A stretch of DNA of 64,000 bases from Escherichia coli (lineage in GTDB: Bacteria; Pseudomonadota; Gammaproteobacteria; Enterobacterales; Enterobacteriaceae), in the NCBI RefSeq assembly GCF_045037415.1, contig NZ_CP173439.1; one strand, given 5' to 3'. Position numbers and translations under genes: made by a program. The notes beneath the pieces were generated by a model that was given only the letters and a program-made list of their open reading frames with translations, had not been told where the DNA came from and searched no databases. The stretch's first letter is position 1. Each line of letters starts with the position of its first letter. Below are positions 5,368 to 7,944 of this stretch, one piece after another.

Positions 5368-5461
5368 TGTTTATCTGTAAGCGTAAACTGACCGCCGTAT
5401 GTAGCCATCAGACGAGAATTGGTAACTTAGACGCCCATCTGATATAGACGGACATCTAAGT

Positions 5462-5887
5462 ATGGAATTACAGGACTGGCGAAAAGAACCTCGTAAAAAC
5501 TATTCGAATGAATTCAAACTTCGTATGGTGGAACTGGCATCACAACCTGGAGCTTGTGTTGCACAGATTGCACGTGAAAATGGCGTCAATGATAATGTTA
5601 TTTTCAAATGGCTCAGGCTCTGGCAGAACGAAGGGCGTGTTTCGCGGCGTCTTCCGGTAACGACCTCTTCTGACACTGGCGTTGAATTATTACCTGTAGA
5701 AATAACGCCGGATGAGCAGAAAGAACCTGTGGCGGCCATTGCGCCGTCTTTATCCACTTCCACTCAGACCAGAGTCAGTGCCAGTTCCTGCAAGGTGGAA
5801 TTCCGTCACGGTAACATGACGCTGGAAAATCCATCGCCAGAGCTGCTCACAGTGTTGATCCGTGAACTGACCGGGAGGGGAAGATGA
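5462..5887 (+). CDS. IS66-family TnpA (orf1)
   Basis: 141-aa ORF; IS66 orf1-like (…NEFKLRMVELASQPGACVAQIAREN…). Confidence 0.85.
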   Translation: MELQDWRKEPRKNYSNEFKLRMVELASQPGACVAQIARENGVNDNVIFKWLRLWQNEGRVSRRLPVTTSSDTGVELLPVEITPDEQKEPVAAIAPSLSTSTQTRVSASSCKVEFRHGNMTLENPSPELLTVLIRELTGRGR

Positions 5888-6234
5888 TCTCACTCCCATC
5901 AGGTACCCGTATCTGGCTCGTTGCCGGCGTTACCGATATGCGTAAATCCTTCAACGGACTGGGAGAACAGGTACAACATGTGCTGAATGATAATCCCTTC
6001 TCCGGTCACCTGTTTATCTTCCGTGGCCGACGGGGTGACACCGTCAAAATTCTTTGGGCTGATGCTGATGGTCTGTGCCTGTTCACCAAACGCCTGGAGG
6101 AAGGCCAGTTTATCTGGCCTGCGGTACGTGACGGCAAGGTATCCATTACCCGCTCGCAACTGGCAATGCTCCTCGATAAGCTGGACTGGCGTCAGCCAAA
6201 AACATCCAGCCGTAACTCACTGACAATGTTGTAA
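5884..6234 (+). CDS. IS66-family TnpB (orf2)
   Basis: 116-aa ORF overlapping orf1 by 4 nt; IS66 orf2-like. Confidence 0.85.
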   Translation: MISLPSGTRIWLVAGVTDMRKSFNGLGEQVQHVLNDNPFSGHLFIFRGRRGDTVKILWADADGLCLFTKRLEEGQFIWPAVRDGKVSITRSQLAMLLDKLDWRQPKTSSRNSLTML

Positions 6235-6264
6235 AAAACTCCTGACCGCATTATAAAAACGGTC

Positions 6265-7878
6265 ATGAGTCAGAAATACCTCATTCGCATCGCAGAGCTG
6301 GAAAGGTTGCTCTCTGAGCAGGCTGAAGCCCTCCGTCAGAAAGACCAGCAACTGAGTCTGGTTGAAGAGACGGAAGCCTTCCTGCGCTCTGCACTGACAC
6401 GTGCCGAAGAAAAGATCGAAGAAGATGAACGGGAAATAGAACATCTGCGGGCTCAGATAGAAAAACTGCGCCGGATGCTGTTCGGTACCCGTTCTGAAAA
6501 ACTGCGTCGTGAAGTTGAACTGGCTGAGGCTCTGCTGAAACAACGTGAACAGGACAGCGATCGTTACAGTGGGCGGGAAGACGATCCTCAGGTTCCCCGC
6601 CAGTTGCGACAGTCGCGCCATCGTCGTCCGTTACCGGCACACCTTCCCCGTGAAATACACCGCCTGGAGCCAGAAGAAAGCTGTTGCCCGGAGTGTGGCG
6701 GTGAGCTGGATTATCTGGGGGAAGTCAGCGCTGAACAGCTGGAACTGGTGAGCAGTGCCCTGAAAGTGATCCGCACAGAACGGGTAAAAAAAGCCTGTAC
6801 AAAATGTGACTGTATTGTTGAAGCACCGGCGCCGTCCCGCCCGATAGAGCGTGGTATCGCGGGCCCCGGATTACTTGCCCGCGTGTTAACGGGAAAATAC
6901 TGCGAACATCTGCCACTGTATCGTCAGAGTGAAATCTTTGCCCGCCAGGGTGTCGAACTGAGCCGGGCCTTACTCTCCAACTGGGTTGACGCGTGCTGCC
7001 AGTTAATGACACCGGTGAATGATGCCCTGTACCGTTATGTAATGAACACCCGCAAGGTTCACACTGATGACACACCGGTAAAGGTACTGGCACCGGGTCA
7101 GAAAAAGGCGAAAACAGGGCGTATCTGGACGTATGTCCGGGATGATCGCAATGTGGGTTCGTCATCTCCTCCAGCGGTCTGGTTCGCGTACTCGCCGAAC
7201 CGGCAGGGGAAACACCCGGAGCAACACCTCCGCCCCTTCCGGGGTATCCTGCAGGCGGATGCGTTCACAGGTTACGACAGGTTGTTCAGTGCAGAACGTG
7301 AAGGTGGTGCACTGACAGAAGTTGCGTGCTGGGCCCATGCCCGGCGAAAAATCCACGATGTATACATCAGCAGCAAAAGTGCGACGGCAGAAGAAGCCCT
7401 GAAGCGAATCAGTGAACTGTACGCCATCGAGGATGAAATACGGGGATTACCGGAGTCAGAGCGTCTTGCCGTCAGGCAGCAGCGAAGCAAAGTGTTACTG
7501 ACGTCGCTGCATGAATGGATGGTGGAGAAGAATGGTACGCTGTCGAAAAAATCCAGACTGGGCGAAGCGTTCAGCTATGTACTGAATCAGTGGGATGCCC
7601 TCTGTTATTACAGTGATGACGGTCTGGCGGAGGCGGATAATAATGCTGCGGAAAGAGCGCTTCGTGCAGTCTGTCTCGGAAAGAAAAACTTTATGTTCTT
7701 TGGCAGCGATCACGGCGGCGAGCGTGGAGCACTGTTGTACGGGCTGATCGGCACCTGCCGTCTGAACGGTATCGATCCGGAAGCGTATCTGCGCCATATC
7801 CTGAGCGTACTGCCGGAATGGCCTTCCAACCGAGTTGACGAACTCCTGCCATGGAACGTAGTACTCACCAATAAATAA
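6265..7878 (+). CDS. IS66-family transposase TnpC (orf3)
   Basis: 537-aa ORF with leucine-zipper N-terminus, zinc-finger CxxC pairs and DDE-type core typical of IS66 TnpC. Confidence 0.85.
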   Translation: MSQKYLIRIAELERLLSEQAEALRQKDQQLSLVEETEAFLRSALTRAEEKIEEDEREIEHLRAQIEKLRRMLFGTRSEKLRREVELAEALLKQREQDSDRYSGREDDPQVPRQLRQSRHRRPLPAHLPREIHRLEPEESCCPECGGELDYLGEVSAEQLELVSSALKVIRTERVKKACTKCDCIVEAPAPSRPIERGIAGPGLLARVLTGKYCEHLPLYRQSEIFARQGVELSRALLSNWVDACCQLMTPVNDALYRYVMNTRKVHTDDTPVKVLAPGQKKAKTGRIWTYVRDDRNVGSSSPPAVWFAYSPNRQGKHPEQHLRPFRGILQADAFTGYDRLFSAEREGGALTEVACWAHARRKIHDVYISSKSATAEEALKRISELYAIEDEIRGLPESERLAVRQQRSKVLLTSLHEWMVEKNGTLSKKSRLGEAFSYVLNQWDALCYYSDDGLAEADNNAAERALRAVCLGKKNFMFFGSDHGGERGALLYGLIGTCRLNGIDPEAYLRHILSVLPEWPSNRVDELLPWNVVLTNK

Positions 7879-7944
7879 GCGTCAATACGGTGCTCCGTTG
7901 ACGCTTACGTTTATCTGCTCCTGGTAATTAATTATGCTGAATTA

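What the first reader, a model, noticed from the sequence alone, without database searches (positions are those of the whole stretch)
5369..7916. Intact IS66-family element with perfect 8-bp TSD, 10 bp upstream of a gene already truncated by IS629
GTTTATCT is duplicated at both IS ends, indicating simple transposition. The insertion sits immediately upstream of the start codon of the hypothetical membrane protein gene (4801-5367), separating it from its native promoter region next to the hha-like gene; the same gene has lost its 3' end to IS629.
Basis: seen in the sequence. Interest (0 to 1): 0.2.

Follow-up and report, generated by a model that had tools for sequence, protein, structure and literature searches.

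The report
ISEc23 insertion upstream of plasmid DUF2726 gene
A well-known 2.5-kb jumping gene (ISEc23, IS66 family) has inserted between the ribosome-binding site and the start codon of a small gene of unknown function on an IncF plasmid; this is an ordinary, already understood kind of event.

Summary
Window 5377-7908 is a complete 2532-bp copy of ISEc23 (IS66 family). It has 24-nt terminal inverted repeats starting GTAAGCG, and tnpA, tnpB and tnpC are all intact. It is 100% identical to many copies in E. coli plasmids and is flanked by a perfect 8-bp duplication, GTTTATCT. Joining the two flanks with one GTTTATCT copy reproduces, at 100% identity in one piece, the uninterrupted DUF2726-hha-thermonuclease locus of other IncF plasmids, so this is a simple transposition.

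Three refinements:
- The IS lies between the Shine-Dalgarno AGGAG and the ATG of the DUF2726 gene. Natively that ATG is only 37 bp after the hha stop, so the gene is probably co-transcribed with hha rather than driven by a promoter in the spacer.
- The IS629-type element (3494-4803) is also a simple insertion, with a 3-bp duplication (ATC). It removes only the last 8 of 196 codons, and the displaced 3' end survives at 3464-3493.
- The order of the two insertions cannot be determined.

No record in PLSDB, in complete RefSeq E. coli genomes or in GTDB representative genomes has this exact ISEc23 junction. The gene is most likely silenced (inference). The finding is real but routine, so interest is low.

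The parts
5369..5376 (.). Left copy of the 8-bp target-site duplication GTTTATCT
   Evidence: present once in empty-site plasmids
5377..7908 (+). Complete ISEc23 (IS66 family), 2532 bp
   Evidence: 100% identity over 1-2532 to many plasmid copies annotated 'IS66-like element ISEc23 family transposase'; identical boundaries in four other contexts
5377..5400 (+). Left terminal inverted repeat (GTAAGCGTAAACTGACCGCCGTAT)
   Evidence: (I1)
5462..5887 (+). tnpA (141 aa, HTH_Tnp_1)
   Evidence: same coordinates as RefSeq CDS WP_000422741.1 in identical copies
5884..6234 (+). tnpB (116 aa, PF05717 TnpB_IS66); its start overlaps the tnpA stop (ATGA)
6265..7878 (+). tnpC, DDE transposase (537 aa; LZ_Tnp_IS66, zf-IS66, DDE_Tnp_IS66, DDE_Tnp_IS66_C)
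7885..7908 (-). Right terminal inverted repeat
   Evidence: (I1)
7876..7907 (.). Perfect 10-bp hairpin inside the right end, overlapping the tnpC stop. On the hha-sense strand it is followed by UUUAUU (terminator-like)
   Evidence: I25; 91-nt fold -25.2 kcal/mol, z = -4.3
7909..7916 (.). Right copy of the 8-bp target-site duplication GTTTATCT
7918..7922 (-). Native Shine-Dalgarno (AGGAG) of the DUF2726 gene, now 2.5 kb away from its start codon
   Evidence: native sequence ...ACCAGGAGCAGATAAACAATG
4801..5367 (-). DUF2726 gene body: 188 native codons (4804-5367) plus a TGA stop supplied by the IS629 terminus (4801-4803). N-terminal hydrophobic helix and a PD-(D/E)XK-superfamily domain
   Evidence: PMC3424549
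3464..3493 (-). Displaced 3' end of the DUF2726 gene (last 8 codons, the stop, and the ATC duplication)
3494..4803 (-). IS629/IS1203-type IS3-family element, 1310 bp, orfA 4423-4749 and orfB 3536-4426, flanked by the 3-bp duplication ATC (3491-3493 / 4804-4806)
7945..8154 (-). hha-family gene (69 aa), intact; natively 37 bp upstream of the DUF2726 start codon
8200..8736 (-). Thermonuclease (SNase) gene upstream of hha. RefSeq annotates a shorter 462-bp CDS, equivalent to window 8200-8661

Best explanation
A complete, presumably active copy of the known insertion sequence ISEc23 (IS66 family; tnpA-tnpB-tnpC, 24-nt inverted repeats) transposed into the backbone of an IncFII-type plasmid. It landed in the 37-bp spacer between hha and the downstream DUF2726 gene and duplicated the 8-bp target GTTTATCT. 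The insertion point lies between the Shine-Dalgarno AGGAG and the ATG of the DUF2726 gene. The gene therefore keeps only 9 nt of native leader, followed by the IS end, and is cut off from the thermonuclease-hha transcription unit. A separate simple insertion of an IS629-type element (3-bp duplication ATC) splits off the gene's last 8 codons. Shown: the identity, completeness and boundaries of both IS elements, both duplications, the existence of the uninterrupted locus, and the position relative to the SD and ATG. Inferred: the DUF2726 gene is now not expressed or only poorly expressed; the insertion is recent (zero divergence from other copies); it is neutral or nearly so, in a dispensable region of the plasmid that tolerates IS insertions.
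For: IS identity and completeness: 100% over 2532 bp; 968 plasmid records at >=99% identity; Pfam domains of all three ORFs; inverted repeats. Duplication and boundaries. Empty site: (100% identity in one piece; native order copB-DUF2726-hha-thermonuclease-ANR-finO). IS629 simple insertion: (left flank 100% identical to the empty-site plasmid up to ...CTGATC; ATC repeated at 4804-4806). Mild truncation. Loss of SD and no replacement: (the new upstream sequence GGTCAGTTTACGCTTACAGATAAACA-ATG has no SD-like motif). No outward-facing promoter-like site at the IS left end, and no promoter-like or terminator-like site in the native spacer. A terminator-like hairpin meets transcripts entering the IS from hha. 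IncFII context: RepA; tra genes.
Against: Nothing contradicts the structural account. The functional inference (silencing) is untested. The consensus promoter scans are crude, a weak promoter inside the IS left end or leaderless or non-SD initiation cannot be excluded, and co-transcription with hha is inferred only from spacing. Neutrality is assumed, not shown. ISEc23 was named from RefSeq annotation, not from a direct comparison with the ISfinder reference.
Confidence: 0.92

Rival explanations
1. The 8-bp repeat is coincidental and the IS is ancestral to the locus, or arrived by recombination rather than by transposition into this site.
For: GTTTATCT is AT-rich and occurs 4 times on the plus strand of the window.
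Against: The empty site with a single GTTTATCT copy is 100% identical across 1357 bp in several plasmids. Other ISEc23 copies show the same exact boundaries with their own 8-bp duplications. The probability of a chance match at the two fixed positions is about 1.5e-5.
Confidence: 0.01
2. The insertion activates or rewires the DUF2726 gene through an outward-reading or hybrid promoter at the ISEc23 left end, rather than silencing it.
For: IS-borne outward promoters are known for other IS families (general knowledge). The IS end lies only 9 nt from the ATG.
Against: No promoter-like site on the minus strand near 5377-5460. The SD is displaced and no substitute SD is created. With 9 nt of leader, any transcript would lack a ribosome-binding site.
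Confidence: 0.04
3. Inactivation of the DUF2726 gene is selected, not neutral. The gene, a membrane-anchored PD-(D/E)XK-fold protein, is costly in some hosts and is repeatedly knocked out by IS elements.
For: The same gene or its immediate 3' flank carries independent IS insertions in other plasmids. IS1 removes the first 35 nt of the CDS in many ST131-type plasmids. IS629-type elements sit at two other positions near its 3' end. IS1B interrupts the locus in NZ_CP103757.1. In this window the gene is hit twice.
Against: No normalisation against neighbouring genes or against IS target preference was done. [quoted passage not shown] Thousands of plasmids keep the gene intact (2141 records cover >=80% of the joined flanks).
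Confidence: 0.12

Closest known systems
ISEc23 (IS66 family), as annotated in E. coli IncF plasmids such as pEC958
   Same: 100% nucleotide identity over all 2532 bp to hundreds of copies. Same three ORFs and protein accessions, same ends, and an 8-bp duplication. ISEc23 is reported on the ST131 IncF plasmid pEC958 (PMC4398462).
   Different: Only the insertion site. This junction was absent from PLSDB, from complete RefSeq E. coli genomes and from GTDB representative genomes. The ISEc23-like copy next to DUF2726 in ST131-type plasmids is a separate event: its left end was deleted by IS1 and its right flank reads GTATTAGT.
ISCro1 (IS66 family), the second IS66-family element in this window (18011-20709)
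   Same: Same three-gene architecture, GTAAGCG-type end and perfect 8-bp duplication (TTCTGATC).
   Different: 2699 bp, with a 225-aa TnpA. Only patches align to ISEc23, at 64-76% nucleotide identity. It is inserted in traD, not near hha.
IS629/IS1203 (IS3 family)
   Same: 1310 bp, orfA/orfB with an rve integrase core, termini TGAACC(G/A)CCCCGGG, 3-bp duplication. 99.8% identical to the best plasmid copy.
   Different: The databases label it only 'IS3 family' or 'IS1203 family', so the name IS629 rests on my knowledge of its length and terminal sequence.

Membership tests
IS66 family | Three consecutive ORFs tnpA-tnpB-tnpC, with tnpA and tnpB overlapping | tested here: met
   ORFs 5462-5887, 5884-6234 (ATGA overlap), 6265-7878
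IS66 family | TnpC carries the IS66-type DDE transposase domain | tested here: met
   PF03050 E = 9e-98, plus zf-IS66, LZ_Tnp_IS66 and the IS66 C-terminal element
IS66 family | TnpB is an IS66 Orf2-like protein | tested here: met
   PF05717 E = 1.1e-36
IS66 family | Terminal inverted repeats of about 20-30 bp beginning GTAAGCG (from my knowledge of the family) | tested here: met
   24-nt arms, 83% complementary; the motif occurs only at the two ends in the window
IS66 family | 8-bp target-site duplication | tested here: met
   GTTTATCT on both sides; four other copies each have their own perfect 8-bp duplication
IS66 family | Demonstrated transposition activity of this copy | not testable with these tools
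   Inferred only from intact ORFs and ends and from the 100% identity of dispersed copies
ISEc23 (specific element) | Near-identity to the reference ISEc23 sequence | tested here: inconclusive
   100% identical to copies that RefSeq annotates as 'ISEc23 family transposase'. The ISfinder reference itself was not available for comparison
IS3 family (IS629/IS1203 type), for the neighbouring element | orfA (HTH) and orfB (rve integrase core) in overlapping frames, about 1.3 kb, terminal inverted repeats, 3-bp duplication | tested here: met
   Pfam HTH_Tnp_1 and rve/HTH_21; 1310 bp; ATC duplicated; RefSeq annotates a programmed frameshift in close copies

The most novel reading that the evidence does not exclude
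The short interval from copB to hha on IncF plasmids, and the DUF2726 (PD-(D/E)XK-fold, membrane-anchored) gene in particular, is a recurrent IS target. In this reading its repeated independent disruption (ISEc23 and IS629 here; IS1 and IS629-type elements elsewhere) reflects selection against the gene in certain hosts rather than mere tolerance. That would point to a costly, possibly nuclease- or conflict-related function for this uncharacterised backbone gene.
Probability: 0.12. Interest if true: 0.3.

Novelty: already known. Interest (0 to 1): 0.08.

Why it matters
It matters little beyond annotation. The result shows that this plasmid's DUF2726 gene should be annotated as disrupted: its ribosome-binding site is displaced by ISEc23 and its last 8 codons are displaced by IS629. 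The ISEc23 junction, absent from the collections searched, could serve as a lineage marker for this plasmid. It also adds one more case to the IS-driven decay of this plasmid's backbone; in the same window traD is split by ISCro1. Only a systematic census showing excess disruption of the DUF2726 gene would raise the interest.

Tried and rejected
- I looked for the same ISEc23 junction in PLSDB, complete RefSeq E. coli genomes and GTDB representative genomes by exact 34-mer. None was found, so prevalence and the order of the two insertions could not be resolved.
- I looked for the same IS629 junction. Only different IS629 positions near the gene turned up.
- I tested whether the widespread 'DUF2726 - IS1 - ISEc23-like' arrangement of ST131-type plasmids is the same insertion. 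It is not: IS1 has deleted both the 5' end of the gene and the left 49 bp of the IS, and the right flank differs (GTATTAGT against GTTTATCT).
- I scanned for an outward promoter at the IS end and for a native promoter or terminator in the hha-DUF2726 spacer. None was found, but these are weak consensus scans.
- I searched the literature for a known function of DUF2726. It is only classified within the PD-(D/E)XK superfamily, function unknown.
- I rejected inversion or recombination between the two inverted IS629-type copies (3494-4803 and 22133-23443) as the origin of the junctions, because the first copy has matching 3-bp duplications and both of its flanks are colinear with the empty-site plasmid.

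Full report
**Observation**

The window sequence shows GTTTATCT at 5369-5376 and again at 7909-7916. Between them lies a 2532-bp element (5377-7908). Its ends are 24-nt inverted repeats, 83% complementary, both beginning GTAAGCG (pair I1). The motif GTAAGCGTNNANNG occurs only at these two ends in the 64-kb window, against 0.07 matches expected by chance.

The element encodes three ORFs on the plus strand:
- tnpA, 5462-5887 (141 aa, HTH_Tnp_1).
- tnpB, 5884-6234 (116 aa, PF05717 TnpB_IS66, E = 1e-36). Its start overlaps the tnpA stop in ATGA.
- tnpC, 6265-7878 (537 aa), with LZ_Tnp_IS66, zf-IS66, DDE_Tnp_IS66 (E = 9e-98) and the IS66 C-terminal element.

**Identity of the element**

Megablast against 72,556 plasmids finds 968 records with a copy at 99% identity or more. 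Many are 100% identical over positions 1-2532 in a single piece and are annotated 'IS66-like element ISEc23 family transposase'. I fetched four of these identical copies from unrelated contexts (IncK2/Z, IncFIA/FIB/FII and IncFIB/FIC plasmids). All begin and end at exactly the same bases, and each is flanked by its own perfect 8-bp duplication: CCATCCGC, GAATAACG, CGTACTTG and ACATAAAA. This fixes the boundaries of the mobile unit and shows that an 8-bp duplication is a regular property of this element. ISEc23 is a known component of IncF plasmids such as pEC958 (PMC4398462). There is only one ISEc23 copy in the window.

**Proof of simple transposition**

I joined the left flank (4804-5376) to the right flank (7917-8700), keeping one GTTTATCT copy. 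The 1357-bp construct matches NZ_CP103744.1 (pMB2855_2), CP056571.1 and NZ_CP147076.1 at 100% identity in one piece, and 2141 records cover at least 80% of it. In pMB2855_2 the annotated order is incFII repA, tap, the replication regulator RepA (CopB), DUF2726 protein (591 bp), hha, thermonuclease-family protein, ANR regulator, finO, alpha/beta hydrolase, traX, traI. The window has the same order: IncFII RepA at 1816-2685 and F-type TraD pieces further on.

**Where exactly the IS landed**

The native gene-strand sequence reads ...GTAAGG TAA taattcagcataattaattacc AGGAG cagataaaca ATG AAG CTG.... The hha stop and the DUF2726 start are 37 bp apart. The target AGATAAAC (GTTTATCT on the plus strand) lies between the Shine-Dalgarno AGGAG and the ATG.

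In the window the ATG (5365-5367, minus strand) keeps only 9 native nucleotides of leader. These are followed by the IS left end (GGTCAGTTTACGCTTAC-AGATAAACA-ATG), which contains no SD-like motif. The AGGAG now sits at 7918-7922, 2.5 kb away.

No promoter-like or terminator-like site was found in the native spacer on the gene strand, and none at the outward face of the IS left end. The short spacer and the 45-bp gap between the nuclease gene and hha suggest that the three genes are co-transcribed; this is an inference. Transcripts leaving hha now run into the IS right end, where a perfect 10-bp hairpin (7876-7885 / 7898-7907, pair I25) is followed by UUUAUU on that strand. The 91-nt region folds at -25.2 kcal/mol, z = -4.3. 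The most likely consequence is loss of both transcription and translation initiation for the DUF2726 gene. This is inferred, not shown.

**The IS629 part of the claim**

The element at 3494-4803 is 1310 bp, with termini TGAACCGCCCCGGG and TGAACCACCCCGGG. It encodes orfA (4423-4749, HTH_Tnp_1) and orfB (3536-4426, HTH_21 plus rve). Its best plasmid match is 99.8% identical, and the databases label it 'IS3 family' or 'IS1203 family'. The name IS629 rests on my knowledge of its length and ends.

Window 3225-3493 is 100% identical to the empty-site plasmid up to ...CTGCTGATC, and the sequence resumes after the IS with ATCAGCCCCT. This is therefore also a simple insertion, with a 3-bp duplication ATC (3491-3493 / 4804-4806). 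It lies 24 nt before the native stop codon. The window ORF keeps 188 of 196 codons at 100% identity and ends at a TGA supplied by the IS terminus. The Pfam DUF2726 match (residues 59-170) is identical in the native and shortened proteins. The missing 8 codons and the native stop survive at 3464-3493. The truncation is real but slight.

**What the gene is**

The protein has an N-terminal hydrophobic helix (MKLIIFIFIVLIIAALLIRIIL) and a DUF2726 domain, with a sub-threshold match to a restriction-endonuclease-like family. DUF2726 is placed in the PD-(D/E)XK phosphodiesterase superfamily, function unknown (PMC3424549).

**Uniqueness and order of events**

- No record in PLSDB or in complete RefSeq E. 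coli genomes covers either a 240-bp probe across the left ISEc23 junction (0 records at 80% coverage or more) or the 1401-bp IS629-gene-ISEc23 probe.
- An exact 34-mer across the junction is absent from GTDB representative genomes.
- The common ST131-type arrangement 'DUF2726 - IS1 - ISEc23-like' is a different event. IS1 there removed the first 35 nt of the CDS and the left 49 bp of the IS, and the IS right flank reads GTATTAGT.
- IS629-type elements occur at other positions near the gene's 3' end in other plasmids: 16 bp closer to the stop in pE100416_79, and in the downstream intergenic region in pE2528C1_53.

**Comparison with known systems and verdict**

Every defining feature of the IS66 family that could be tested is met (see the membership table), and the element is sequence-identical to the known ISEc23. 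Nothing about its anatomy is unusual. The finding is a correct, well-observed but routine IS insertion. The only mildly interesting thread is that this small backbone gene is disrupted independently by several IS elements in different plasmids. That could reflect either tolerance of a dispensable region or selection against the gene, and I could not distinguish the two.

Noticed in passing
window 18003-20717: A second intact IS66-family element, ISCro1 (18011-20709, 2699 bp), is 100% identical to copies in Klebsiella, Salmonella and E. coli plasmids. It is inserted in traD with a perfect 8-bp duplication TTCTGATC. traD is split into 20706-21758 (N-terminal part) and 16865-17947 (C-terminal part), so the plasmid is probably not self-transmissible.
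   Followed up: partly
window 22133-23443: A second IS629-type copy (98.7% identical, 1311 bp) lies in inverted orientation relative to the copy at 3494-4803. Its orfB appears broken into two ORFs. The pair could mediate inversion of the roughly 17-kb segment between them, but the flanks of the first copy show that no inversion has occurred.
   Followed up: partly
window 36577-40688: A lasso-peptide biosynthesis cluster in C-B-D order: asparagine-synthase-like protein 36785-38281, B2 protease 38281-38964, ABC exporter 38964-40688. A candidate 62-aa precursor ORF lies at 36577-36765 (...KSTN|GTGGGSIIEGSYTVYRCDGG...; Thr at -2, Gly1, Glu9, two Cys). About 23 PLSDB plasmids cover at least 80% of the 5.5-kb probe (six listed at 100% identity, e.g. 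NZ_CP091758.1; E. coli VR50 plasmid NZ_CP011136.1 at 99.9%), where annotations under the match include a colicin-like pore former and its immunity gene. As I recall it, microcin J25 has the gene order B-C-D, which differs from this cluster. The product was not identified.
   Followed up: partly
L007 (pE100416_79), L009 (pE2528C1_53), L002 (NZ_CP082832.1) versus window 3464-5367: The DUF2726 gene and its 3' flank carry independent IS insertions in other IncF plasmids: IS629-type elements at two other positions, and IS1 removing the 5' end in many ST131-type plasmids. This could be a hot spot or a dispensable region.
   Followed up: partly
window 7876-7907: The ISEc23 right end contains a perfect 10-bp palindrome (TAAGCGTCAA...TTGACGCTTA). 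The terminal repeat sequence is therefore present twice in opposite orientations, and the palindrome overlaps the tnpC stop codon. It may act as a terminator or as a transposase-binding feature.
   Followed up: partly
window 26854-27975, 42358-44327, 47573-49870, 55841-56746, 57351-59321, 60182-62878: The rest of the window is IS-dense: an N-terminally truncated umuC; two IS21-family copies (42358-44327 and 60909-62878); IS30-, IS91- and IS2-type transposases; a truncated IS66 tnpC (60182-60700); and a TonB-dependent haem/haemoglobin receptor gene (57351-59321). There is also a ParA/ParB pair (28112-30285) and a second, RepE-like replication gene (30880-31638).
   Followed up: no
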